From a virus, in UHGV virus genome UHGV-1067530: 33,600 nt of DNA; one strand, 5' to 3'. The notes below the pieces were generated by a model that made no database searches, was not told where the DNA came from, and saw nothing but the letters and a program-made list of their open reading frames with translations. Shown here piece by piece: positions 7,964 to 14,983 of this stretch (within the stretch, counting starts at the first letter, position 1; each line of letters opens with the position of its first letter). The position numbers and the translations under genes are program-made.

Positions 7964-8335
7964 ATGAAAAACAGAACAAACAAAGGCCAGTTTAAAAAAG
8001 GCCAGTCTGGAAACCCATCTGGAAGACCAAAAGGCTCTCGTAACAAAAGCTCACTCGTAAAAGCTCAACTGACCATTGATAATTCTGCTGAGTTTGCTGC
8101 AAAGTTGTTTGAAGCGATTGTTACAAGGGACGCTGCTAAGCTTGCAGAGTTCGGGTTAAACACAGACGACGTAACCATCAAGAGCATGATTGAGGTCGGT
8201 AAAACTATCATGACCCACTCAGCAGGTGAGATGAAAGCAATTGCAGCAGATACTAAGAAGACTCCTGATAACAGTAGTCAGTCTCAGACAGAAAACAAAC
8301 CAACGTTCTCTGCTGTTGCAACTCTCAAAAAATAA
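7964..8335 (+). CDS. hypothetical basic protein with N-terminal GQSGNPSGRPKGS motif (DUF5681-like)
   Basis: KGQFKKGQSGNPSGRPKGSRNK motif recalled from phage DUF5681-type proteins; not verified by search. Confidence 0.5.
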   Translation: MKNRTNKGQFKKGQSGNPSGRPKGSRNKSSLVKAQLTIDNSAEFAAKLFEAIVTRDAAKLAEFGLNTDDVTIKSMIEVGKTIMTHSAGEMKAIAADTKKTPDNSSQSQTENKPTFSAVATLKK

Positions 8336-8416: not shown

Positions 8417-9832
8417 ATGAGCGAATTATTTAAACATGCGCACCTTCATGCAGGTCGAACTGAAAATGGTGCTGTAAACCATACTTCATCAATGTCTGCT
8501 CTTGTAGACTTTTACAAAGCTGCTGGTTCAAGCCGTAGCAACGTAGAAATCTTACCAGACCTGTTCTACAAAGCTTTGCGTGAGGATGTTGATGTTGCAG
8601 TTCGTATTTTACTGCATATGCGAGATGTACGAGAAGGTATTGGTGAGCGTAAAGCCTTCAGAACTGTTTTGCTTCAAGCAATTGAAGATAAAGTTTTAGA
8701 GCCTACACAGGTTCTTCGCATTATGGATAAGATTGCAGAACTTGGTCGTTTTGATGACTTCAAAATCTTCGTAGGTACTCGTTTCGAGACAGATGCCTTC
8801 AAACATTTAGAAGCAGCATTACTAGACCCTGCAACAGCAGGTTTGGCAGCCAAGTGGCTACCACGAGTCAAACCACGTCATAAGCAGTTTGTAAAACGTT
8901 TCTGTAAGTTTGCCAACTTGAGTGAGAAAGAGTATCGCACACTGTTGTCTGCGCTCTCTGATACAGTTGAGCAAAAAATCTCTGCTAATGAGTTTGGCAA
9001 GATTGACTACAGTAAGATTCCTTCACTTGCTGCTGCACGTTACCAAAAACTGTTTAACCGCAAAGATGGAGAACGCTACAAAGCTTACATCGAGTCCTTA
9101 TCAAAGGGTGAGACTAAGATTAATGCTGGTGCTGTTTACCCATACGATGTGATTAAGTCTGTTAAGTATGGTAATGCAGATGTTGCTAATGAGCAGTGGA
9201 AAGCACTACCAAACTGGATGGCAGAGGGTGAAAACATTCTCTGTATGTCTGATGTTTCACGTTCAATGTCTTGGGTGAATTTTGGCTCCATTACTACTCT
9301 GGATATTGGTGTATCACTTGCATTGTATGTAGCAGAACGCAATACAGGTTGCTTTAAAAATGAGTTAATGGTTTACTCAACAAACCCTCACTTCATCGAA
9401 CTGAGTGGTGATTTACGAAACCGTCATCGTCAGGTGATGCGGCACGTTGAATATGGCTCAACTAACTTACAAGCAGCTTTTGACCGTATTCTTGAGACAG
9501 GTAAAAGAAATAACTTGACTCAGAAAGATATGCCAAGTAAGCTTATCATCTTCTCAGATATGGAGTTCAATCAGGTTGATGGAGCTAACGGTCGCACAAA
9601 CTTTGAAGCAATCCAGAGTAAGTACAAGAAAGCTGGATACGAAATGCCACAACTGGTATTCTGGTACTTAGCAAACCGTAATGGTACTTGCGAAGTATCT
9701 GTTAAGGATAACGGTGTAGCAATGGTATCTGGTTTCTCTCCAGCCACTTTAAAAGCTCTGCTTGGTGGTGAGAAGTTTGACCCTATCAGCGTAATGCTCA
9801 AAGCAGTAATGATTGACCGTTATATCTGGTAA
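8417..9832 (+). CDS. vWA-domain protein with N-terminal alpha-helical domain; possibly Ro60/TROVE-like (DUF2828-type)
   Basis: MIDAS motif in ILCMSDVSRSMS (DxSxS), downstream YGSTNL (T) and LIIFSDMEF (D) at vWA-typical spacing; N-terminal ~270 aa has no motif I recognise; the TROVE assignment is inference. Confidence 0.55.
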   Translation: MSELFKHAHLHAGRTENGAVNHTSSMSALVDFYKAAGSSRSNVEILPDLFYKALREDVDVAVRILLHMRDVREGIGERKAFRTVLLQAIEDKVLEPTQVLRIMDKIAELGRFDDFKIFVGTRFETDAFKHLEAALLDPATAGLAAKWLPRVKPRHKQFVKRFCKFANLSEKEYRTLLSALSDTVEQKISANEFGKIDYSKIPSLAAARYQKLFNRKDGERYKAYIESLSKGETKINAGAVYPYDVIKSVKYGNADVANEQWKALPNWMAEGENILCMSDVSRSMSWVNFGSITTLDIGVSLALYVAERNTGCFKNELMVYSTNPHFIELSGDLRNRHRQVMRHVEYGSTNLQAAFDRILETGKRNNLTQKDMPSKLIIFSDMEFNQVDGANGRTNFEAIQSKYKKAGYEMPQLVFWYLANRNGTCEVSVKDNGVAMVSGFSPATLKALLGGEKFDPISVMLKAVMIDRYIW

Positions 9833-9850: not shown

Positions 9851-9879
9851 TTGACAATGTGTTTGATACCCTTTAATAT
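9851..9879 (+). promoter_or_regulatory. Putative sigma70-like promoter heading the tRNA array
   Basis: TTGACA (9851-9856), 17-nt spacer, TAATAT (9874-9879); the -35 sits inside the inverted repeat GGGTAT...ATACCC. Confidence 0.45.
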
Positions 9880-9941: not shown

Positions 9942-9971
9942 TTGACAATCACTAAAAAATAATGTTAAAGT
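9942..9971 (+). promoter_or_regulatory. Putative second promoter upstream of tRNA-Pro
   Basis: aaaaaagttcTTGACA, 18-nt spacer, TAAAGT; same architecture as the 8348 promoter. Confidence 0.35.
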
Positions 9972-9997: not shown

Positions 9998-10074
9998 CTC
10001 TGTTTAGCTCAGCTTGGTAGAGCGTTCCGTTTGGGGCGGTAAGGCCGGAGGTTCAAGTCCTCCAACAGAGACCA
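9998..10074 (+). tRNA. tRNA-Pro (anticodon TGG)
   Basis: Acceptor CTCTGTT/AACAGAG, D-arm GCTC/GAGC, anticodon loop TTTGGGG, T-arm GGAGG-TTCAAGT-CCTCC, encoded CCA. Confidence 0.8.
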
Positions 10075-10081
10075 AATTAAT

Positions 10082-10159
10082 GTTCCAGTAGACAAAATGG
10101 TATAGTCACCACTCTTTCAAAGTGGATATTTGAGGGTTCAAATCCCTTCTGGAACGCCA
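10082..10159 (+). tRNA. tRNA-Glu (anticodon TTC)
   Basis: Acceptor GTTCCAG/CTGGAAC, anticodon stem CCACT/AGTGG, loop CTTTCAA, T-loop TTCAAAT, CCA. Confidence 0.8.
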
Positions 10160-10162
10160 GTT

Positions 10163-10239
10163 TTGACAGAAGACCAATTACAGCAAACTTAATCTTATTC
10201 ATCTGAAGGTAAATCGGACAAAGAAGAGATTTGGTCTGG
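10163..10239 (+). repeat. Inverted-repeat-bounded element, copy 1 (TTGACAGAAGACC-AA-TTACAGCAA ... TTGGTCTGG)
   Basis: 5' box CAGAAGACC + TTACAGCAA, 3' box GGTCTGG; termini AGACCAA/TTGGTCT are complementary. Confidence 0.6.
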
Positions 10240-10251
10240 TCATTAAGAATT

Positions 10252-10327
10252 GCGGGTATAGAGAAAGGGCGTCTCACATGTCTCATTAGCATGGTATCGG
10301 CAGGTTCGACTCCTGCACCCGCCTCCA
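10252..10327 (+). tRNA. tRNA-Met/Ile2-like (anticodon CAT), slightly irregular acceptor/T-stem register
   Basis: Acceptor GCGGGTA, D-arm GAGA/TCTC, anticodon stem CATGT/GCATG, loop CTCATTA, T-arm GCAGG-TTCGACT-CCTGC; 3' strand ACCCGCC pairs with a 1-nt offset. Confidence 0.5.
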
Positions 10328-10329
10328 AA

Positions 10330-10397
10330 TTTACAGAAGACCGTTTACAGCAATATTTATTAAATTTTTAGCGGAAAAATTGAAAGATGTGGTCTGG
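10330..10397 (+). repeat. Inverted-repeat-bounded element, copy 2 (TTTACAGAAGACCGTTTACAGCAA ... GGTCTGG)
   Basis: 5' 27 nt identical to copy 4; internal AT-rich hairpin AATTTTT/AAAAATT. Confidence 0.6.
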
Positions 10398-10410
10398 TAA
10401 TACTAAACAT

Positions 10411-10487
10411 GGTTAGGAAGCACATAAGGTATGTGCGGTCGCCTGTTAAGCGAATGGCACAGGGTTCGAATCCCTGACTAACCGCCA
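10411..10487 (+). tRNA. tRNA-Asn (anticodon GTT)
   Basis: Acceptor GGTTAGG/ACTAACC, D-arm GCAC/GTGC, anticodon loop CTGTTAA, T-arm CAGGG-TTCGAAT-CCCTG, discriminator G, CCA. Confidence 0.75.
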
Positions 10488-10556
10488 AATTTAGGAGAGA
10501 AGCGATTGCTCACCGATTTGTAAGGTGCAAGTCCTTAGCCTGAATAGAAATTAAAT

Positions 10557-10644
10557 GTGTCGTTATCCCGTAGATGGTAGCGGTGGGGACTGTAAATCCC
10601 TTGTCATTGAGACTCGGTAGGTTCGACTCCTACACGGCACACCA
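10557..10644 (+). tRNA. tRNA-Tyr (anticodon GTA), long variable arm
   Basis: Acceptor GTGTCGT/ACGGCAC, anticodon loop CTGTAAA, ~15-nt variable arm, T-arm GTAGG-TTCGACT-CCTAC, CCA. Confidence 0.7.
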
Positions 10645-10649
10645 ACAAA

Positions 10650-10727
10650 GGTTATGTAGTTTAATTTGGTTAAAATACTCCCCTGTCACGGGAGATGATG
10701 AGGGTTCAAATCCCTTCGTAACCGCCA
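10650..10727 (+). tRNA. tRNA-Asp (anticodon GTC)
   Basis: Acceptor GGTTATG/CGTAACC, anticodon stem CTCCC/GGGAG, loop CTGTCAC, T-loop TTCAAAT, CCA. Confidence 0.75.
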
Positions 10728-10788
10728 ATTTTGAGAGGGCTATTTAGCCCCTCCCTTAAAGAGTTCTTACGAGTATTCTTTAAAGGAG

Positions 10789-10862
10789 CAGAAGACCAAA
10801 TACAGCAAGTTACTTAAAATTTCAAGCCAATTTAATTTTGAAAAATTTAAAACTTGGTCTGG
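10789..10862 (+). repeat. Inverted-repeat-bounded element, copy 3 (CAGAAGACC-AAA-TACAGCAA ... TTGGTCTGG)
   Basis: Same terminal boxes; interior is a long AT-rich imperfect hairpin (CAAGTTACTTAAAATTTCAA / TTGAAAAATTTAAAACTTG). Confidence 0.6.
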
Positions 10863-10871
10863 CTCAACAAA

Positions 10872-11006
10872 TTTACAGAAGACCGTTTACAGCAAAACTT
10901 AAACAATCTATTTCTCGGTAAAGAAAAGGAGAAGGTTCGATTCCTTCACTCGGCAGGTGTCGAGTTGGTGTAATGGTAGCACTTAAGATGATAAACAACG
11001 GTCTGG
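10872..11006 (+). repeat. Inverted-repeat-bounded element, copy 4 (TTTACAGAAGACCGTT ... AACGGTCTGG), containing tRNA-like fragments
   Basis: 8-bp terminal complementarity AGACCGTT/AACGGTCT; interior holds a T-arm (GAAGG-TTCGATT-CCTTC) followed by a D-arm-like segment. Confidence 0.6.
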
Positions 11007-11007
11007 T

Positions 11008-11151
11008 AATTATCTTTGTAGATAAGTTATTAAGCTTACCTGTGAGTATGCGACCACAAAGGGTGAAAGGGTAAATTCTAGATTTAAACCCAAAAAGGCA
11101 CATCGCTACAGACCTTAAGCAAGTCTGGGTAGCTTATCTACAAAGATAATT
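11008..11151 (+). repeat. 19-bp perfect inverted repeat (AATTATCTTTGTAGATAAG / CTTATCTACAAAGATAATT) flanking 106 nt
   Basis: Read directly: 11008-11026 is the exact reverse complement of 11133-11151; the interior contains CAGACC...GTCTGG. Confidence 0.7.
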
Positions 11152-11155
11152 TAAT

Positions 11156-11231
11156 GGAAGTGTAGCAGAATGGTGATGCGGCAGACTTTTAATCTGACAG
11201 GCGATGGGTTCGAATCCCTCCACTTCTACCA
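11156..11231 (+). tRNA. tRNA-Lys (anticodon TTT)
   Basis: Acceptor GGAAGTG/CACTTCT (G1-U72 wobble), anticodon loop CTTTTAA, T-loop TTCGAAT, discriminator A, CCA. Confidence 0.7.
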
Positions 11232-11235
11232 ATAT

Positions 11236-11312
11236 GGTTCAGTCGCAGATAAGGTAATGCAAGGGTCTCATAAGCCCTATGAATGTGGGTTCGATTCCCA
11301 TCTGAACCTCCA
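11236..11312 (+). tRNA. tRNA-Met or Ile2 (anticodon CAT)
   Basis: Acceptor GGTTCAG/CTGAACC, anticodon stem AGGGT/GCCCT, loop CTCATAA, T-arm TGGG-TTCGATT-CCCA, CCA. Confidence 0.75.
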
Positions 11313-11314
11313 AT

Positions 11315-11389
11315 TGTGGGTTAGCATAAATGGTAATGCAAACGGCTGATAACCGTTAGAAGAGGGTTCGATACCCTCACCTACAACCA
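11315..11389 (+). tRNA. tRNA-Ile (anticodon GAT)
   Basis: Acceptor TGTGGGT/ACCTACA, D-arm GCA/TGC, anticodon stem AACGG/CCGTT, loop CTGATAA, T-arm GAGGG-TTCGATA-CCCTC, CCA. Confidence 0.75.
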
Positions 11390-11404
11390 ATTTCAATAAA
11401 GTTG

Positions 11405-11433
11405 TTGACATTGAGATGTGACTACTTTATAGT
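11405..11433 (+). promoter_or_regulatory. Putative sigma70-like promoter inside the tRNA array
   Basis: aaagttgTTGACA (11405-11410), 17-nt spacer, TATAGT (11428-11433). Confidence 0.45.
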
Positions 11434-11439
11434 AACTAA

Positions 11440-11726
11440 AATACTTCAGAATATGTATAATTCAAACACCAATACATGAGCGTTAGACGTAACACAATGT
11501 GGGGAAATTTGTTGTACATATTCTGAATAGTTTTCGTTGCGTAGCGTCTATTTTGCAAATTTAAAATAAATGCAAACGACAATGTTTTTCTGGCAGTAGC
11601 TTGATAGGCTAAACACCAGTGAGGTCTTCCAATCCCTCATCAAAGAATTTGGCGTACTAGCCCACGGTATGATTAATAAGGTGGGCATCTTTAAGGGCTT
11701 TCTAAGAGAGTCTTTAAAGATAATTA
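11440..11726 (+). ncRNA. Candidate structured non-coding RNA region (ORF-free, multiple hairpins)
   Basis: No ORF of 60 aa or more; 13-bp perfect inverted repeat TTCAGAATATGTA (11445-11457) / TACATATTCTGAA (11515-11527); hairpins GCCCAC...GTGGGC, TGAGG...CCTCA, TTTGCA...TGCAAA; sits downstream of the 11405 promoter. Confidence 0.35.
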
Positions 11727-11808
11727 CGGGGCGTATCTCAGCGGTCTTCTAAACCGCCGTTAACCGAGTAAGTGGAGTATGCGGGTTCGAGTCCTGCCGC
11801 CTCGACCA
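11727..11808 (+). tRNA. tRNA-like, Arg(TCT)-type anticodon arm, atypical (no canonical D-arm, 23-nt segment before the T-arm)
   Basis: Acceptor CGGGGCG/CGCCTCG, anticodon stem GCGGT/ACCGC with loop CTTCTAA, T-arm GCGGG-TTCGAGT-CCTGC, discriminator A, CCA; the D-arm 3' strand is not identifiable. Confidence 0.45.
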
Positions 11809-11950
11809 ATTAGTTAGCAGATTACTTAGACGACCTAAGCGGGTCTTCCTGTAGGGAGGTGGTCTGTATCTCATGTTTTCCAGAACATGTAAATAATCTG
11901 AGAAGGGGCTTTACAGTGTTGAGATAATACGGTAAGCTTCGAATTATAGT

Positions 11951-12033
11951 ATGGGACGATGTTAAGACTCTAAGGCATGAGCAACGGCTTCCAACACCGT
12001 TTCAAAGGGGTTCAACTCCTCCGTCCCATGCCA
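11951..12033 (+). tRNA. tRNA-like, Trp(CCA)-type anticodon loop, atypical (7 extra nt in the D region)
   Basis: Acceptor ATGGGAC/GTCCCAT perfect, hairpin ACGGC-TTCCAAC-ACCGT, T-arm AGGGG-TTCAACT-CCTCC, discriminator G, CCA; D region is 26 nt. Confidence 0.4.
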
Positions 12034-12046
12034 AAGTCTTATTAGG

Positions 12047-12134
12047 GGTAGGTAGCGGCTAATGGTAGCCAAACTGTCTTGAAAACAGTTGCCACTGTAG
12101 AGATACGGTGAGGGTTCGACTCCTTTACTTACCG
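12047..12134 (+). tRNA. tRNA-Ser (anticodon TGA), long variable arm; CCA not encoded
   Basis: Acceptor GGTAGGT/ACTTACC, anticodon stem ACTGT/ACAGT, loop CTTGAAA, ~20-nt variable arm, T-arm GAGGG-TTCGACT-CCTTT, discriminator G. Confidence 0.7.
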
Positions 12135-12137
12135 CCT

Positions 12138-12391
12138 AATAAGATTTAAAGCCAAGCTTCATTCGGATGTCGCTTTGGTATCCCGCGTGTATTGTCGTAC
12201 ACACTGATAAAACACCTAGTAGGTGTCACGGAGAAGAGATAATATCAAGCTCTCCAAAGGTTCTAGTCACCGGATTAAACAAGACTATGCAAAGACCTTT
12301 TTAGGTCTTTTTAGAGGGCTTCTAAGGTTATTACAGCTTGTTGTGGAACCTTGTTGCTTAGGTTCTTAGAAGTTCTCTAAAAAGATTTAAT
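12138..12391 (+). ncRNA. Candidate structured non-coding region (hairpins, terminator-like stem, long CTTCTAAG/CTTAGAAG hairpin)
   Basis: ORF-free; hairpins GTGTA...TACAC, ACACCTA...TAGGTGT, GGAGA...TCTCC; AAAGACC-TTTTT-AGGTCTTT followed by a T-run (about 12288-12312); inverted repeat CTTCTAAG (12320) / CTTAGAAG (12365). Confidence 0.3.
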
Positions 12392-12469
12392 GGGAGATTG
12401 ACGGTAATTGGTAAACCTACCATCCTTAGAAGTTGGTGTTTGAGGGTTCGAATCCCTTGTCTCCTACCA
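12392..12469 (+). tRNA. tRNA with Leu-type anticodon TAG but short (5-nt) variable loop
   Basis: Acceptor GGGAGAT/GTCTCCT, anticodon stem CCATC/GTTGG (one U-U), loop CTTAGAA, T-arm GAGGG-TTCGAAT-CCCTT, discriminator A, CCA. Confidence 0.55.
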
Positions 12470-12476
12470 AATTAAT

Positions 12477-12552
12477 GCAGGTGTAGCAAAATGGTTATGC
12501 GGCTGACTCTTAATCAGTAAGACGATGGGTTCAATTCCCTCCACCTGTACCA
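12477..12552 (+). tRNA. tRNA-Lys (anticodon CTT)
   Basis: Acceptor GCAGGTG/CACCTGT, anticodon stem GCTGA/TCAGT, loop CTCTTAA, T-loop TTCAATT, discriminator A, CCA; close paralog of the 11156 tRNA. Confidence 0.7.
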
Positions 12553-12558
12553 GACATT

Positions 12559-12634
12559 TGGGTCATAGTTTATATGGTTAAAATTCGAGTTTTGCAAACT
12601 TGGGAACTGAGTTCAATTCTCAGTGACTCCACCA
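12559..12634 (+). tRNA. tRNA-Ala (anticodon TGC)
   Basis: G3-U70 wobble present in the acceptor (TGGGTCA/TGACTCC), anticodon stem CGAGT/ACTTG, loop TTTGCAA, T-arm CTGAG-TTCAATT-CTCAG, discriminator A, CCA; 1-72 is unpaired (T/C). Confidence 0.7.
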
Positions 12635-12640
12635 ATTAGT

Positions 12641-12715
12641 GCATCCATAGTTTAAACGGGAAAATTACAGTCTTCCAAACTGAGGTTGAGGGTTCGATTC
12701 CCTCTGGATGCTCCA
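12641..12715 (+). tRNA. tRNA-Gly (anticodon TCC)
   Basis: Acceptor GCATCCA/TGGATGC perfect, anticodon loop CTTCCAA, T-arm GAGGG-TTCGATT-CCCTC, CCA. Confidence 0.75.
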
Positions 12716-12721
12716 AACAAT

Positions 12722-12798
12722 GCTGCTTTCGTATAATTGGCTATTACACATCCCTTGTAAGGATGGAAATGCAGGTTCGAGTCCTGTGAGCAGCACCA
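12722..12798 (+). tRNA. tRNA-Thr (anticodon TGT)
   Basis: Acceptor GCTGCTT/GAGCAGC, anticodon stem CATCC/GGATG, loop CTTGTAA, T-arm GCAGG-TTCGAGT-CCTGT, discriminator A, CCA. Confidence 0.8.
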
Positions 12799-12799
12799 A

Positions 12800-12893
12800 T
12801 TCAGAGGTCAAGTGAAAGACCGCTGGTGTCAACTGAAGACCGTAACAAATTCCACGGAGTTGAGTTAGCGGCACAACTTCAGACCTCTTTCAC
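12800..12893 (+). repeat. Repeat/palindrome-rich spacer related to the CAGAAGACC element family
   Basis: CTGAAGACCGTAACA (12836-) resembles the 5' box; AGAGGTC...GACCTCT and CTGAAG...CTTCAG inverted repeats. Confidence 0.4.
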
Positions 12894-12968
12894 ACTCGCT
12901 TAGTTTATATGGTAAAACATCACCCTTACAAGATGAAGAAAAAGGTTCAAGTCCTTTAGTGAGTACCA
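12894..12968 (+). tRNA. tRNA-Val (anticodon TAC)
   Basis: Acceptor ACTCGCT/AGTGAGT, D-stem GTTT, anticodon loop CTTACAA, T-arm AAAGG-TTCAAGT-CCTTT, discriminator A, CCA. Confidence 0.65.
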
Positions 12969-12969
12969 T

Positions 12970-13047
12970 GTTCCAGTATCCCAATTGGCAGAGGATGCAA
13001 GCTCAAACCTTGTATTAGTGACGGTTCGAATCCGTCTTGGAACACCA
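12970..13047 (+). tRNA. tRNA with Leu-type anticodon CAA but short (6-nt) variable loop
   Basis: Acceptor GTTCCAG/TTGGAAC, D-loop AATTGGCAGAG, anticodon stem TGCAAG/CTTGTA with loop CTCAAAC, T-arm GACGG-TTCGAAT-CCGTC, discriminator A, CCA. Confidence 0.55.
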
Positions 13048-13065
13048 ATTTAAAGAGGCTATTTA

Positions 13066-13623
13066 ATGAGATATTTGAAGTATGCTTCATGGATTTTCTT
13101 AGCTTTACTAGACCCAATTGCAGCAATCCTAGCAGTTATCTTAGCACCTTTCGTAGTTCCATTCTACAGTGAGAAGAAAGGACATCTACCTTTTGGATTC
13201 AGATGGATGGAGACCTATGACAACCCGATTGATGGTGACGAAGGTCACGTTAAAAGATGGGCTAAGATTAGAAAGATTGGTAAGCTGGGTGTCTACATGC
13301 AGAGAGTTGGGTGGCTCTGGAGAAACAAAGCTTATAACTTCTCTTACCATGTATTAGGAAGAGATGTAAAAGATGTTACTAAGTGGAGAGGTAATATCAA
13401 CGTAAGTTCTGACCCTGAAGATAATCAGACTGGTTATCTCCTAATGTGGAACAACAATGCTTGGGGATTATTCGCTTTTATTCCGTCAATTAAAGTCTTT
13501 GGTAAACAGTTTTACTGGAGAATTTATGTTGGATGGAAACTAAAAAGTGTTGTCCCAGAAGAAAGAGCATTCTCAAGGGAAAGAGTTATGTTGGCATTCT
13601 TTATTCATCCACTGAGAAAGTAA
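13066..13623 (+). CDS. hypothetical membrane protein (185 aa) embedded in the tRNA array
   Basis: ORF with RBS aaagagg upstream; N-terminal hydrophobic helix WIFLALLDPIAAILAVILAPFVVPF; Trp/Arg-rich remainder. Confidence 0.6.
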   Translation: MRYLKYASWIFLALLDPIAAILAVILAPFVVPFYSEKKGHLPFGFRWMETYDNPIDGDEGHVKRWAKIRKIGKLGVYMQRVGWLWRNKAYNFSYHVLGRDVKDVTKWRGNINVSSDPEDNQTGYLLMWNNNAWGLFAFIPSIKVFGKQFYWRIYVGWKLKSVVPEERAFSRERVMLAFFIHPLRK

Positions 13624-13631
13624 AGATTTAA

Positions 13632-13707
13632 AGGGGATTAGTTTACAAGGTTAAAACCTCGGTCTTTGAAATCGAAGAAGTTGGTTCAATTCCAACATCC
13701 CCCGCCA
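13632..13707 (+). tRNA. tRNA-Gln (anticodon TTG)
   Basis: Acceptor AGGGGAT/ATCCCCC with unpaired 1-72, discriminator G, anticodon stem TCGGT/ATCGA, loop CTTTGAA, T-arm GTTGG-TTCAATT-CCAAC, CCA. Confidence 0.7.
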
Positions 13708-13709
13708 AT

Positions 13710-13788
13710 GCTCCATTACTCCAATTGGCAGAGAGGCCAGACTTAAAATCTGTGTTATGTATCGGTTCGAATCCGATATGGAGTACCA
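13710..13788 (+). tRNA. tRNA with Leu-type anticodon TAA but short (7-nt) variable loop
   Basis: Acceptor GCTCCAT/ATGGAGT, D-loop AATTGGCAGAG, anticodon stem CCAGA/TCTGT, loop CTTAAAA, T-arm ATCGG-TTCGAAT-CCGAT, discriminator A, CCA. Confidence 0.55.
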
Positions 13789-13793
13789 ATTTT

Positions 13794-13869
13794 AGCGGTA
13801 TAGCATAACTGGCAATGCAGCAGTCTCTGAAGCTGTCCTATTAAGGTTCAAATCCTTATGCCGCTGCCA
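13794..13869 (+). tRNA. tRNA-Gln (anticodon CTG)
   Basis: Acceptor AGCGGTA/TGCCGCT, D-arm GCAT/ATGC, anticodon loop CTCTGAA, T-arm TAAGG-TTCAAAT-CCTTA, discriminator G, CCA. Confidence 0.7.
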
Positions 13870-13900
13870 CTTCTAAGGGTTCTTACGAGAGTCCTTAAAT

Positions 13901-13976
13901 GTGGCCTTATCATAAACGGTAATGACCCATGCTGTGAACATGGTCTATACGGGTTCAAATCCCGTAGGTCACCCCA
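13901..13976 (+). tRNA. tRNA-His (anticodon GTG)
   Basis: Acceptor GTGGCCT/AGGTCAC, D-arm TCAT/ATGA, anticodon stem CCATG/CATGG, loop CTGTGAA, T-arm ACGGG-TTCAAAT-CCCGT, discriminator C, CCA; position -1 is T, not G. Confidence 0.8.
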
Positions 13977-13981
13977 ATTTA

Positions 13982-14058
13982 TAGTCCAAGTAGCTTATAT
14001 GGTTAAAGCGCGTGTCTGAAAAACATGAGAAGAGGGTTCAAATCCCACTGGACTACCA
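13982..14058 (+). tRNA. tRNA-Phe (anticodon GAA), acceptor register slightly irregular
   Basis: D-arm GCTT/AAGC, anticodon stem CGTGT/ACATG, loop CTGAAAA, T-loop TTCAAAT; acceptor TAGTCCA/TGGACTA pairs perfectly but leaves a 4-nt linker before the D-stem. Confidence 0.6.
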
Positions 14059-14074
14059 ATTTCAAAGGTGCTTA

Positions 14075-14809
14075 ATGAAAGAGATGACAGGACAAGGTAA
14101 GGAGATTTTTAATCTCTTAAAAACCGGTAAAGGGTTTTCTAACCCACTTATTACTGGTGCAGCAGTTCTCGGTGGAACCGTAGCTGCCTCTACATCACTT
14201 GTAAGCTCTATTAGCTCTGTAACAGACCCGACAATGAATGAGAAACTTGTTGCTGCTGGACTTACAACAGTCCTTCTAAACAGCTTTACAACAAGCCTGA
14301 CAAGCACTACAGCAACTACTAAGACCCTAACAGACTATGGTCAAAAGTCTATTGATGAGTTTTCATCACGTATGCAGGTAGCAAAGGGGTATTCCAATGT
14401 TATGGGTGCAGCAGGAGAACAAGTTGGTTGTACACCATTCAGTGGTATTATGGGTGTTGCTACAGAGTATGGTCAAAAAGCTATTGACATGATTAACAGC
14501 ACACTAGACAGTGTTAACGGTGTGTTAAGTGACTTACAAGACGCTATTGATAAGGGTCTTGATACTGTTTCTGATTTAGCTAATCAAGCTGTTAGCAAGA
14601 TTAATGAAGGTATCTCAAAGATTACAGCTTATGCAGATGAAGTTGTGCAGATGATTGAAGAAGAAGCTGCCCTTATTGCAGAGTACCTTAAAACGAATAT
14701 CAATGGGTTCTTAGCAGGTATCTTACCAGACTGGTTTGATGATGCTCGCAAAACTGGTGTAATCGACACTATTGCAACACCAGAAATGAAGAACGCATTA
14801 CAGAAATAA
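14075..14809 (+). CDS. hypothetical Ser/Thr-rich protein (244 aa)
   Basis: The ORF track starts at 14012 inside tRNA-Phe; first ATG with an upstream aaagg RBS is 14075 (MKEMTGQ...); S/T-rich N-half, helical C-half. Confidence 0.55.
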   Translation: MKEMTGQGKEIFNLLKTGKGFSNPLITGAAVLGGTVAASTSLVSSISSVTDPTMNEKLVAAGLTTVLLNSFTTSLTSTTATTKTLTDYGQKSIDEFSSRMQVAKGYSNVMGAAGEQVGCTPFSGIMGVATEYGQKAIDMINSTLDSVNGVLSDLQDAIDKGLDTVSDLANQAVSKINEGISKITAYADEVVQMIEEEAALIAEYLKTNINGFLAGILPDWFDDARKTGVIDTIATPEMKNALQK

Positions 14810-14810
14810 T

Positions 14811-14903
14811 GGAAGATTAACCCTAAAAGGTAAGGGAGCAGTTTGCTAAACTGCCAGTAGCTGAGAAATCGGTGTACCAGTTCAAGTCTGGTATCTTCCT
14901 CCA
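14811..14903 (+). tRNA. tRNA-Ser (anticodon GCT), long variable arm
   Basis: Acceptor GGAAGAT/ATCTTCC perfect, D-stem CCC/GGG, anticodon stem GCAGT/ACTGC, loop TTGCTAA, ~20-nt variable arm, T-arm ACCAG-TTCAAGT-CTGGT, CCA. Confidence 0.8.
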
Positions 14904-14907
14904 ATCT

Positions 14908-14983
14908 GAATCCGTGACAGAAATGGATATGTGCCTGTCTGCAAAACAGGTTTATAAGGGTTCAAGTCCCTTCGGATTCTCCA
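14908..14983 (+). tRNA. tRNA-Cys (anticodon GCA)
   Basis: Acceptor GAATCCG/CGGATTC perfect, anticodon stem CCTGT/ACAGG, loop CTGCAAA, T-arm AAGGG-TTCAAGT-CCCTT, discriminator T, CCA. Confidence 0.8.

What the first reader, a model, noticed from the sequence alone, without database searches (positions are those of the whole stretch)
10925..10985. T-arm and 3' acceptor strand located immediately upstream of a 5' acceptor strand and D-arm (permuted or fragmented tRNA)
Inside element copy 4, a canonical T-arm (GAAGG-TTCGATT-CCTTC) plus ACTCGGC-A is followed after 3 nt by GTCGAGT-TG-GTGT-AATGGTA-GCAC. GTCGAGT pairs with ACTCGGC as an acceptor stem. The tRNA 3' half therefore precedes its 5' half, and the unit is enclosed by the 8-bp inverted repeat AGACCGTT/AACGGTCT. 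This could be a circularly permuted tRNA-like gene, otherwise described mainly in some algae and archaea, or a recombination scar joining two tRNA fragments.
Basis: partly seen in the sequence, partly recalled or inferred. Interest (0 to 1): 0.6.

Follow-up and report, generated by a model that had tools for sequence, protein, structure and literature searches.

The report
Phage Y RNA with permuted tRNA mimic
The "back-to-front tRNA" is real, but it is neither a broken nor a permuted tRNA gene: it is the tRNA-shaped head of a small non-coding RNA of the Y RNA (YrlA) type, one of four related RNAs in the tRNA cluster of a Felix O1-like phage, just downstream of a gene for a Ro60-like RNA-binding ring protein that is their likely partner.

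Summary
At 10931-10982 (+) a T-arm, a 7-bp self-closing "acceptor" hairpin, a 2-nt linker and a D-arm follow one another. They are enclosed by the stem 10880-10887/10997-11004, inside copy 4 of a four-copy element.

The window is a Felixounavirus (100% identical to Salmonella phage Mushroom). The module is conserved across three genera. The T and D arms are invariant, while the acceptor hairpin is rewritten with full compensation (7 bp/AGGU, 6 bp/UACG, 7 bp/8-nt loop). It is therefore a closed hairpin, not tRNA ends.

In phages whose homologue is only 38-47% identical, similar RNAs lie next to the gene, always on its strand. They have a covarying terminal stem followed by U(A/U)C(A/C)GCAA, and often a tRNA-like module.

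The canonical Ro-binding motif GNCGAA is absent, and no Rfam family matches. Protein binding and function are inferred, not shown.

Verdict: a new variant of a known kind.

The parts
8417..9832 (+). Gene for a 471-aa Ro60-like protein (HEAT-repeat ring plus vWA domain); the presumed protein partner of the RNAs
9851..9879 (+). Promoter-like site (TTGACA-17-TAATAT) ahead of the tRNA / Y-like RNA block
   Evidence: Consensus match only.
9942..9971 (+). Second promoter-like site (TTGACA-18-TAAAGT, with TG) 27 nt before the first tRNA
   Evidence: The next promoter-like site is at 11405, with no + strand terminator in between. The four RNAs are therefore probably co-transcribed with tRNA-Pro to tRNA-Ile (inference).
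10167..10239 (+). Y-like RNA copy 1 (short form, 73 nt): stem AGACCAA/TTGGTCT, UACAGCAA motif, central hairpin
   Evidence: R1 gives 40.0 bits and R2 40.6 bits.
10334..10397 (+). Y-like RNA copy 2 (short form, 64 nt): stem AGACCGU/GUGGUCU with two G.U pairs
   Evidence: R1 gives 48.7 bits and R2 44.2 bits. Relatives have the Watson-Crick version ACGGTCT.
10789..10862 (+). Y-like RNA copy 3 (short form, 74 nt): stem AGACCAA/TTGGTCT
   Evidence: Not reported by either covariance model: R1 gave no hit at E<=1 and R2 none at E<=0.01.
10876..11006 (+). Y-like RNA copy 4 (long form, 131 nt), which carries the permuted tRNA-like module; this is the finding
   Evidence: R1 gives 150.8 bits and R2 97.7 bits.
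10880..10887 (+). 5' strand of the terminal stem (AGACCGUU); pairs with 10997-11004
   Evidence: One-sided changes in relatives give G.U or U.G pairs that work only in + strand RNA.
10888..10895 (+). Conserved single-stranded motif UACAGCAA next to the stem; candidate protein-recognition site
   Evidence: Invariant in all four copies and all three genera. Consensus U(A/U)C(A/C)GCAA in distant phages.
10907..10930 (+). V (variable-arm-like) hairpin that abuts the T-arm
   Evidence: MFE fold. A different but equivalent hairpin occurs in Moogle-type phages. Weaker support than the other helices.
10931..10947 (+). T-arm: GAAGG UUCGAUU CCUUC
   Evidence: The stem is invariant across the three genera; the loop has one variable base (G/A, loop position 4) in Sf14/Sf16.
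10948..10965 (+). Acceptor-like (AS) hairpin: ACUCGGC-AGGU-GUCGAGU, closed by a 4-nt loop
   Evidence: 3 of the 6 pairs counted show changes on both sides, and 100% of cells are paired.
10968..10982 (+). D-arm: GUGU AAUGGUA GCAC (A14, G18, G19 and A21 equivalents present)
   Evidence: The same D-arm, GUGUAAYGGUAGCAC, occurs in distant loci L026 and L044.
10997..11004 (+). 3' strand of the terminal stem (AACGGUCU), followed by the conserved GG

Best explanation
**What it is.** Positions 10876-11006 encode a ~131-nt non-coding RNA of the Y RNA type. It is the long member of a set of four such RNAs. All four are probably cut out of the same primary transcript as tRNA-Pro to tRNA-Ile.

**Anatomy.**
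- The 5' and 3' ends pair into a 7-8 bp stem.
- Next to that stem lies the single-stranded motif UACAGCAA. Stem plus motif form the module shared by all four copies.
- The distal part of copy 4 folds as a circularly permuted tRNA: variable-arm-like hairpin, T-arm, an acceptor stem closed by a loop, a 2-nt linker and a D-arm. The T and D loops can form the tRNA elbow.

**How it probably works (inferred).**
- The shared stem-plus-motif module is the docking site for the phage's own Ro60-like ring protein (8417-9832).
- The tRNA-shaped head is the effector end. By analogy with Rsr-YrlA/Yrn1-PNPase particles, it either tethers the ring protein to a tRNA-binding factor or exoribonuclease, or it stabilises the RNA.
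- The likely context is RNA quality control or counter-defence during infection. The orthologous protein in phage Bas63 is reported to counter the Ppl defence system.

**Shown here:** sequence, structure, conservation, covariation, strand, the protein's predicted fold, and gene-RNA linkage across distant phages.

**Inferred only:** transcription and processing, protein-RNA binding, and the downstream partner and role.
For: **1. The geometry equals YrlA.**
- S. Typhimurium YrlA has a T stem-loop of 17 nt, an acceptor hairpin, 2 nt, and a D stem-loop of 15 nt with loop AAUGGUA (PMC4201824).
- The window has 17 nt, an 18-nt hairpin, 2 nt, and 15 nt with the same D loop AAUGGUA.

**2. Conservation and covariation within Ounavirinae.**
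- T and D arms are invariant.
- The acceptor hairpin has three fully compensated versions.
- 100% of cells are paired, against 40-48% in slid controls.
- One-sided changes give G.U pairs that are valid only on the + strand.

**3. The neighbouring protein has the Ro60 fold.**
- All other hits cover only the vWA domain.

**4. The RNAs meet the published placement criterion** for bacterial Y RNAs: within 4 kb of the Ro60 gene and on the same strand. They lie 335-1170 nt downstream.

**5. The linkage recurs in phages whose protein is only 38-47% identical.**
- A strict scan for stem plus U[AU]C[AC]GCAA finds 103 hits in 59 of 80 loci on the protein's strand. The opposite strand gives 10 hits and shuffles give 4-11.
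- Closed T-AS-D modules in 9 distant loci are all on the protein's strand and all lie inside such a stem.
- A covariance model built only from Ounavirinae copy 4 hits distant loci at up to 61.9 bits, with 35 of 35 hits on the + strand.
- The second model gives 52 of 52 hits on the + strand, in 34 of 75 distant loci. In the 33.6-kb window it hits only the element copies.
- In the fitted alignment, 98% of cells are paired and 21 of 22 pairs change on both sides.

**6. Independent literature.** Bas63 gp130, a Felixounavirus orthologue, was noted as Ro60-like and as a counter to Ppl. The authors only guessed that 'some tRNA genes are possibly Y RNAs' (PMC11482910).
Against: - The canonical Ro-binding motif (GNCGAAN0-1G / CGAA) is absent.
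- No Rfam family matches, even at E<=10 on a 301-nt query.
- The protein matches neither Pfam TROVE nor Ro60 by sequence or profile. Homology to Ro60 rests on predicted structure alone.
- There are no expression, processing or binding data.
- Phages FG1m and ESCO45 have lost copies 3 and 4 yet keep the protein and are viable. The tRNA-mimic copy is therefore dispensable for growth on the hosts these phages were isolated on.
- The anticodon-like stem CUUAA/UUAAG seen in the MFE fold is not conserved in other genera.
- A Levitt-type 15:48 pair is not evident.
- The alignment behind one search was fitted to the model, so its pair counts lean towards the structure.
Confidence: 0.75

Rival explanations
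1. A structured RNA that is real but works independently of the Ro60-like protein. It could be a decoy that soaks up host tRNA-targeting defence nucleases or tRNA-modifying enzymes. It could also be a processing or insulator element of the polycistronic tRNA transcript.
For: - The RNAs sit inside a tRNA array and begin a few nt after tRNA 3' ends.
- The tRNA-like head has the elbow determinants that many tRNA-binding enzymes recognise.
- Nothing here demonstrates protein binding.
- The canonical Ro motif is missing.
Against: - The same stem-plus-CAGCAA RNAs flank the DUF2828 gene in many phages that have no tRNA genes nearby, for example L018, L020, L022, L023, L025, L027, L029, L031, L033, L035 and L036.
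- Hits are always on the protein's strand.
- Three of the four copies in the window have no tRNA-like part but keep the stem and motif.
Confidence: 0.13
2. A decayed junction of two adjacent (tandem-duplicated) tRNA genes. The 3' end of one and the 5' end of the next survive as a pseudogene scar with no function.
For: - tRNA-tRNA junctions naturally place a T-arm about 20 nt before a D-arm, and many such junctions are seen in these arrays.
- Chen et al. warn that dimeric tRNAs can mimic YrlA.
- YrlA itself may have evolved from a dimeric pre-tRNA.
- Chance expectation is 0.13 per array when real T-arms are kept.
Against: - The module is kept in 246 of 253 records and in three genera.
- The hairpin between the arms is rewritten with perfect compensation, and its loops include a UACG tetraloop.
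- There is no CCA or spacer.
- It is enclosed by a covarying stem plus a conserved motif that is shared with three non-tRNA-like copies and with distant phages.
- It is not a recent copy of any tRNA in the array. The nearest T-arm differs at 2 of 17 positions and the nearest D-arm at 4 of 15.
Confidence: 0.03
3. A genuine circularly permuted tRNA gene (as in Cyanidioschyzon or Thermofilum). Its transcript would be circularised and then reopened at the acceptor stem to give a working tRNA.
For: - The 3' half precedes the 5' half.
- The acceptor stem is 7 bp and is followed by an A at the discriminator position.
- ARAGORN calls no Arg or Trp tRNA in the array.
- M. smegmatis YrlA, which has a 7-bp stem, is cut by RNase P and receives CCA.
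Against: - No anticodon stem-loop can be assembled from the flanks. The only candidate stem, CUUAA/UUAAG, is not conserved.
- Sister genera have a 6-bp stem with a UACG loop, and distant relatives have 0-8 bp.
- Loop bases drift (AGGT, AGAT, AGAG) with no CCA.
- Arg(TCT)-like and Trp-like genes exist elsewhere in the array.
- From general knowledge, the splicing endonuclease this pathway needs is not known in bacteria (also stated).
Confidence: 0.03
4. An intron-containing tRNA-Thr(GGT), as annotated by tRNAscan-SE in some GenBank records (129 nt, ending at the acceptor 3' strand).
For: Annotation in MZ726792 and in REP6/REP8-type records.
Against: - The proposed 5' acceptor strand lies inside Y-like copy 3 and pairs at only 5 of 7 positions in the window (read).
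- ARAGORN and the Rfam tRNA model do not call it.
- It ignores the perfectly pairing strand 3 nt downstream.
Confidence: 0.01

Closest known systems
YrlA (Y RNA-like A) of Salmonella Typhimurium, Mycobacterium smegmatis and mycobacteriophages (Chen et al. 2014, PMC4201824; Wang et al. 2018, bioRxiv 10.1101/312249, PDB 6CU1)
   Same: - The ends pair into a stem.
- The order is V hairpin, T-arm, closed acceptor-like hairpin, 2-nt linker, D-arm. That is a circularly permuted tRNA mimic.
- The D loop AAUGGUA is identical to that of S. Typhimurium YrlA.
- The RNA is encoded within 4 kb of, and on the same strand as, a Ro60-fold protein gene.
- It is accompanied by shorter Y-like RNAs that lack the full tRNA module, like YrlB.
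- Acceptor-stem length varies between species.
   Different: - There is no GNCGAAN0-1G motif. A different conserved motif, U(A/U)C(A/C)GCAA, sits in the equivalent place.
- The protein partner belongs to DUF2828/DUF7788, not to Pfam TROVE.
- The RNAs are embedded in a phage tRNA array and are probably co-transcribed with tRNAs.
- There are four copies.
- No match to any Rfam model.
Thermus phage phiLo Ro60 with Yrl1/Yrl2 (NAR 2025, PMC12135203; PDB 9KOP, 9L5Y)
   Same: - A phage-encoded Ro60-fold protein with two or more Y-like RNAs encoded beside it.
   Different: - The phiLo RNAs were picked by their CGAA motif and lie upstream of the gene.
- No tRNA-like module or tRNA array is reported for them.
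- Sequence identity of the proteins is about 15%.
Deinococcus radiodurans Yrn1 / Rsr / PNPase (the RYPER particle)
   Same: - This is the working model for function: the Y RNA tethers the Ro ring to an exoribonuclease.
- Yrn1 also carries tRNA-like features, in the other arm order. Some distant members of the present family likewise carry a D-AC-T module in normal order.
   Different: Both strands of the metazoan-type Ro-binding helix are kept in Yrn1, but not here. No PNPase link has been tested here.
Circularly permuted tRNA genes of Cyanidioschyzon merolae and some archaea
   Same: The 3' half is encoded before the 5' half. The acceptor is initially closed by a loop, and the ends are paired.
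   Different: Those genes carry a complete anticodon arm and mature into functional tRNAs through the splicing endonuclease. Here there is no anticodon arm, and the acceptor hairpin is not held at tRNA length.

Membership tests
YrlA-type bacterial/phage Y RNA | tRNA-like domain in the order T stem-loop, closed acceptor-like (AS) stem-loop, D stem-loop, with tRNA-invariant loop nucleotides | tested here: met
   10931-10982 reads 17-nt T-arm (UUCGAUU loop), 18-nt hairpin, UG, 15-nt D-arm (AAUGGUA loop). Conserved, with a covarying AS.
YrlA-type bacterial/phage Y RNA | 5' and 3' ends base-pair into a stem that carries the protein-binding site | tested here: met
   10880-10887 pairs with 10997-11004. 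The stem covaries between copies and between phages.
YrlA-type bacterial/phage Y RNA | GNCGAAN0-1G motif near the 5' end (the presumed Ro60 contact) | tested here: not met
   The 5' region reads CAGAAGACCGUUUACAGCAA, with no GNCGAA. The family consensus is U(A/U)C(A/C)GCAA instead.
YrlA-type bacterial/phage Y RNA | Encoded within about 4 kb of a Ro60 orthologue, on the same strand | tested here: met
YrlA-type bacterial/phage Y RNA | Match to a curated covariance model | tested here: not met
   No Rfam 15 family other than spurious hits at E<=10 over 10860-11160 or 10100-12100. I could not verify which Y RNA models Rfam holds.
YrlA-type bacterial/phage Y RNA | Bound by Ro60/Rsr in vivo; pseudouridine 55 and dihydrouridine made by TruB and DusA | not testable with these tools
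   Needs immunoprecipitation and modification mapping.
Canonical tRNA gene | Acceptor 5' strand, D-arm, anticodon arm, T-arm, acceptor 3' strand in that order | tested here: not met
   The order is permuted and there is no anticodon arm. Not called by ARAGORN or by the Rfam tRNA model.
Circularly permuted tRNA gene (matures to a tRNA) | The flanks rebuild a 5-bp anticodon stem and 7-nt loop, and the acceptor is held at 7 bp with discriminator and CCA processing | tested here: not met
   No anticodon loop. The CUUAA/UUAAG stem is not conserved. The AS hairpin is 6 bp with a UACG loop in Suspvirus and Sf14-type phages, and 0-8 bp elsewhere.
Ro60 / TROVE protein (the neighbouring gene) | Ring of HEAT-like helical repeats followed by a vWA domain with a MIDAS motif | tested here: met
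   AF2 model pLDDT 89.7. Full-length matches only to Ro60 structures. DxSxS (D279, S281, S283), T349 and D381 are invariant in 61 homologues.
Ro60 / TROVE protein (the neighbouring gene) | Sequence-level membership (Pfam TROVE PF05731) | tested here: not met
   Only DUF2828 and DUF7788 are hit at E<=1. phmmer and profile searches of PDB sequences find no Ro60. NCBIfam gives nothing.

The most novel reading that the evidence does not exclude
The four RNAs are the obligate RNA subunits of a previously unrecognised and very widespread class of phage ribonucleoprotein. The class pairs DUF2828-type Ro60 rings with 'CAGCAA' Y RNAs.

The protein family has more than 2,500 members in the protein database search and at least 591 confirmed loci in IMG/VR.

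In Felix O1-like phages, this particle would be the real effector that neutralises the Ppl defence system or polices the phage's own tRNA pool. The Felix-type head has a tRNA-length 7-bp acceptor stem followed by an A. It would be opened by RNase P between 10958 and 10959 and CCA-tailed, as in M. smegmatis YrlA. That would give a split, possibly chargeable, tRNA-like particle. Relatives that encode ACCA in the loop (L038, L059) hint at the same.
Probability: 0.15. Interest if true: 0.85.

Novelty: new variant of a known kind. Interest (0 to 1): 0.66.

Why it matters
- It would give a concrete RNA partner, with coordinates and a recognition motif, to a phage Ro60-like protein. That protein was recently reported to counter a bacterial defence system, and its RNAs were only guessed at.
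- It would assign a function class to two large domains of unknown function, DUF2828 and DUF7788.
- It would show that tRNA-mimicking Y RNAs extend well beyond TROVE-annotated genomes, into common enterobacterial phages that are genetically tractable (Felix O1, Bas63). The long-open question of what the tRNA-like head of a Y RNA is for could then be tested by simple deletions.
- A Y RNA sitting inside a tRNA array also fits the published idea that YrlA arose from a dimeric pre-tRNA.
- On the practical side, these ~250 phage genomes currently carry nothing, spurious small ORFs, or a false 'tRNA-Thr' over these RNAs.

Tried and rejected
- **Rfam.** Scans at gathering threshold and at E<=10, including a 301-nt query, gave no meaningful family for the element. 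The Dicty_Class_I_RNA hits (~20 bits) on copies 1 and 2 reflect only the 'short stem plus 5' motif' layout.
- **tRNA callers.** ARAGORN and the Rfam tRNA model do not call the unit.
- **Protein sequence searches.** Searches of the neighbouring protein against PDB, by single sequence and by a 61-sequence profile, and against NCBIfam found no Ro60. Only predicted structure shows the relation.
- **MAFFT alignment of distant members (A3).** It was out of register in the D-arm and the 3' stem, so I did not use it for pair counts. I used model-guided alignment instead and note that this is fitted to the structure.
- **Loose motif scan.** Background was high (137 hits on the minus strand, about 70 in shuffles), so I tightened it.
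- **Relaxed T...D scan.** It mostly returns ordinary tRNA-tRNA junctions. This shows why a closed hairpin must be required.
- **Anticodon-like stem.** CUUAA/UUAAG in the MFE fold is not conserved in other genera.
- **Levitt-type 15:48 pair.** Not supported: the base before the T stem varies between A and C, while position 15 stays A.
- **Neighbouring ORFs.** 7964-8335, 13066-13623 and 14012-14809 gave no informative family.
- **Supplementary YrlA alignments** of Chen et al. are not held. The Annual Review on bacterial Ro60 is not held.
- **Literature.** Searches for a prior description of these RNAs found only the Bas63 speculation.

Full report
**Where we are.** The window is a Felix O1-like phage. 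The 428 bases around the finding are 100% identical to Salmonella phage Mushroom and 95-99% identical to about 200 other Felixounavirus records. Positions 9998-14983 hold a + strand array of 24 tRNA genes called by ARAGORN.

Read from the sequence, on the + strand:
- T-arm: GAAGG-UUCGAUU-CCUUC, 10931-10947.
- Hairpin: ACUCGGC-AGGU-GUCGAGU, 10948-10965 (7 bp, one G.U).
- Linker: UG, 10966-10967.
- D-arm: GUGU-AAUGGUA-GCAC, 10968-10982.
- Enclosing stem: AGACCGUU 10880-10887 with AACGGUCU 10997-11004.

The minimum-free-energy fold reproduces these helices and adds a hairpin at 10907-10930 that abuts the T-arm. The unit is copy 4 (10876-11006) of an element whose head, CAGAAGACCNNNUACAGCAA, occurs four times in the window (10167, 10334, 10789, 10876) and nowhere else; 0.1 occurrences are expected by chance. 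Each copy ends in NNNGGUCUGG, and the NNN positions pair with the NNN of the head.

On its own, the pattern 'T-arm, closed hairpin, D-arm' is rare but not impossible in a tRNA array. It is expected 0.007 times per shuffled window, and 0.13 times per array if the real T-arms are kept. The case therefore rests on comparison with other phages.

**Comparison within the subfamily.** All four copies are present in Felixounavirus, Suspvirus and Mooglevirus. In copy 4:
- The T-arm and D-arm stems are invariant.
- The hairpin between them exists in three versions. Each pairs perfectly: ACUCGGC/GUCGAGU with a 4-nt loop, ACACGU/GCGUGU around a UACG tetraloop, and ACCCUUC/GAAGGGU with an 8-nt loop.
- On a plain MAFFT alignment, every cell of the 23 proposed pairs is a standard pair. 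Three of the six hairpin pairs counted change on both sides. Sliding the partner strand drops pairing to 40-48%.
- Within Felixounavirus the loop drifts (AGGU, AGAU, AGAG) while the stem stays intact.
- One-sided substitutions in the terminal stems give G.U or U.G pairs that would be A.C mismatches on the other strand. Examples are AGGCC/GGUCU, AGACUGU/ACGGUCU, and the window's own copy 2, GU/GU. The structure is therefore an RNA made from the + strand.

A closed hairpin of variable length and loop is not a pair of tRNA ends. This rules out a scar, and it argues against a tRNA precursor.

**What the shape is.** It is the published architecture of YrlA, the tRNA-mimicking subclass of bacterial Y RNAs.
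- YrlA has a terminal stem, a V hairpin, a T stem-loop, an 'AS' stem-loop, and a D stem-loop (PMC4201824).
[quoted passage not shown] It gives the S. Typhimurium domain as TSL 17 nt, AS 15 nt, 2-nt linker, DSL 15 nt, with D loop AAUGGUA.
- The window has 17 nt, 18 nt, 2 nt and 15 nt, with the same D loop.

**The neighbour.** GenBank notes on relatives flagged the ORF just upstream of the array as DUF2828.
- In the window this is 8417-9832 (+, 471 aa). It matches Pfam DUF2828 + DUF7788 and PHROG 850 'RNA-binding protein'.
- With an alignment of 61 homologues, AlphaFold2 gives a confident model, pLDDT 89.7.
- The top eleven Foldseek matches in the PDB are all Ro60 structures, aligned over the full length.
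- A DxSxS...T...D MIDAS-like set is invariant.
- Sequence methods do not see the relation.

The four RNAs lie 335-1170 nt downstream on the same strand. That satisfies the criterion Chen et al. used, namely within 4 kb and on the same strand. Promoter-like sites at 9851 and 9942, no + strand terminator, and the next promoter-like site at 11405 suggest the RNAs are co-transcribed with tRNA-Pro to tRNA-Ile and then cut out (inference).

**Does the link hold far away?** I fetched 80 viral loci that encode relatives of the protein; 75 of them are only 38-47% identical.
- About half of the 40 loci scanned with ARAGORN have tRNA genes right beside the gene on the same strand.
- A strict scan for a perfect T-arm, a closed hairpin and a D-arm found modules that do not overlap any tRNA in L021, L024, L028, L030, L032, L038, L040, L065 (two) and L089. 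All are on the protein's strand, and several have UUCG or GNRA loops. None with a hairpin of 6 bp or more was found on the opposite strand.
- Each of these modules is enclosed by a terminal stem of unrelated sequence whose 5' strand is followed by U(A/U)C(A/C)GCAA. This is the same position and nearly the same sequence as UACAGCAA at 10888-10895.
- Scanning for just 'a 7-bp stem, then this motif, closing within 40-190 nt' gives 103 hits in 59 of 80 loci on the protein's strand. The other strand gives 10 hits and shuffles give 4-11.
- Sizes fall into two classes: about 46-77 nt, like copies 1-3, and about 87-183 nt.
- Phages with no tRNA genes nearby still carry a short element directly after the gene's stop codon.
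- A covariance model built only from the Ounavirinae copy 4 finds distant members at up to 61.9 bits (E 2.6e-10). All 35 hits are on the + strand.
- A second model built from those hits gives 52 of 52 hits on the + strand, in 34 of 75 distant loci. In the 33.6-kb window it hits only copies 4, 2 and 1.
- On the model-fitted alignment, 98.1% of cells pair and 21 of 22 pairs change on both sides. Slid controls give 32-44%. This alignment leans towards the structure by construction.

**Variety in the family.**
- Some members lack the acceptor hairpin altogether yet keep the window's D-arm sequence (L026, L044).
- Some carry a tRNA-like module in normal order without an acceptor stem, in the manner of Yrn1 (L059 4734-4833, L065 4759-4852).
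- Two encode ACCA right after a 7-bp stem (L038, L059). This recalls M. smegmatis YrlA, which is cut by RNase P and CCA-tailed.

**What is and is not known already.**
- YrlA RNAs and phage Ro60 homologues are known in mycobacteriophages, CcrColossus, Bacillus phage G and Thermus phage phiLo.
- For Felixounavirus, a 2024 preprint reports that Bas63 gp130 resembles Ro60, lies upstream of the tRNA genes and counters the Ppl defence system. [quoted passage not shown]
- I found no paper and no Rfam family that identifies these RNAs.
- Database records leave the region blank, lay small hypothetical ORFs over it, or call a 129-nt 'tRNA-Thr-GGT'.

**Most likely mechanism (inferred).** The stem plus UACAGCAA is the common docking module for the Ro60-like ring. 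The variable distal part is the effector end. In copy 4 that end is a tRNA-shaped head, which could recruit or occupy tRNA-binding factors or protect the RNA. This follows the model of the Rsr-Y RNA-PNPase particle and of the phiLo Ro60-Yrl-PNPase complexes.

**Points against, or limits.**
- The canonical GNCGAA/CGAA Ro motif is absent.
- The protein's link to Ro60 is structural only.
- Nothing here shows expression or binding.
- FG1m and ESCO45 have lost copies 3 and 4 but keep the protein and copies 1 and 2. The tRNA mimic is therefore not needed for growth on the hosts these phages were isolated on.

**Verdict.** The arrangement is permuted and tRNA-like, but it is a Y RNA head and not a tRNA gene or a scar. 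I file it as working like YrlA. I do not file it as a member of the YrlA family as defined, because the defining 5' motif was tested and not met and the partner protein lies outside Pfam TROVE. It is a new variant of a known kind.

Noticed in passing
window 11008-11151 (+): A 22-nt, 95% complementary inverted repeat closes a 144-nt hairpin between Y-like copy 4 and tRNA-Lys (MFE -48.3 kcal/mol, z -5.7). The long stem covaries between Felix-type and Moogle/Susp-type phages (GUAGAUAAG/CUUAUCUAC against GCAGUGAC/GUUACUGC). A core UUCUAGAUU is invariant. No Rfam match and no CAGCAA motif. Probably another conserved structured RNA of unknown role.
   Followed up: partly
window 11727-11808 (+), with weaker hits at 11332-11725: A tRNA-like gene with a TCT (Arg) anticodon loop and no normal D-arm. 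It scores 31.7 bits with the Rfam tRNA model and is not called by ARAGORN here, but relatives annotate it as tRNA-Arg. Weak tmRNA and permuted-tmRNA hits cover it and the 400 nt before it.
   Followed up: no
window about 11950-12033 (+): A tRNA-like sequence (GGGACG...CCGTCCCATGCCA) with a T-arm, a CCA end and a possible CCA (Trp) anticodon in an oversized loop. Only a 16.9-bit tRNA-Sec hit, and not called by ARAGORN. Arg and Trp are the two amino acids missing from the ARAGORN list.
   Followed up: no
GenBank records MZ726792 (L001 861-989), AF320576, PP068124 and others; equivalent to window about 10828-10956 and 10728-11155: Public annotations of this region are misleading. Some records carry a 129-nt 'tRNA-Thr-GGT' that spans the end of copy 3 and half of copy 4. 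Others lay small hypothetical ORFs over the RNAs.
   Followed up: partly
L090 (Salmonella phage FG1m) and L091 (Escherichia phage ESCO45): Natural deletion variants. Copies 3 and 4 and several tRNAs are missing, while the Ro60-like gene and copies 1 and 2 are kept. These are ready-made material for testing what the tRNA-mimic copy does.
   Followed up: partly
L059 4734-4833; L065 4759-4852: Distant family members carry a tRNA-like module in normal order (D-arm, anticodon-like arm, T-arm), with the acceptor stem replaced by the Y-type terminal stem. This echoes D. radiodurans Yrn1.
   Followed up: no
L038 7203-7264; L059 6422-6544: Permuted modules whose 7-bp acceptor stem is followed by ACCA inside the loop. 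This suggests that some members are opened to give a CCA-ended, two-piece tRNA-like RNA.
   Followed up: no
L016 4277-4369, L017 3134-3231, L021 150-279, L028 1266-1372, L040 4734-4828: In large Vibrio-phage-like contigs, a second long class of the stem-plus-CAGCAA RNAs shares a different conserved insert, CCUUUCUGGAGGGGAAAGCAAAAACUCGCC, in place of the tRNA-like head.
   Followed up: no
L005 350-778 (Escherichia phage mistaenkt): An HNH homing endonuclease gene sits between tRNA-Asn and tRNA-Asp, where other phages have tRNA-Tyr. It is an example of mobile-element turnover inside the array.
   Followed up: no
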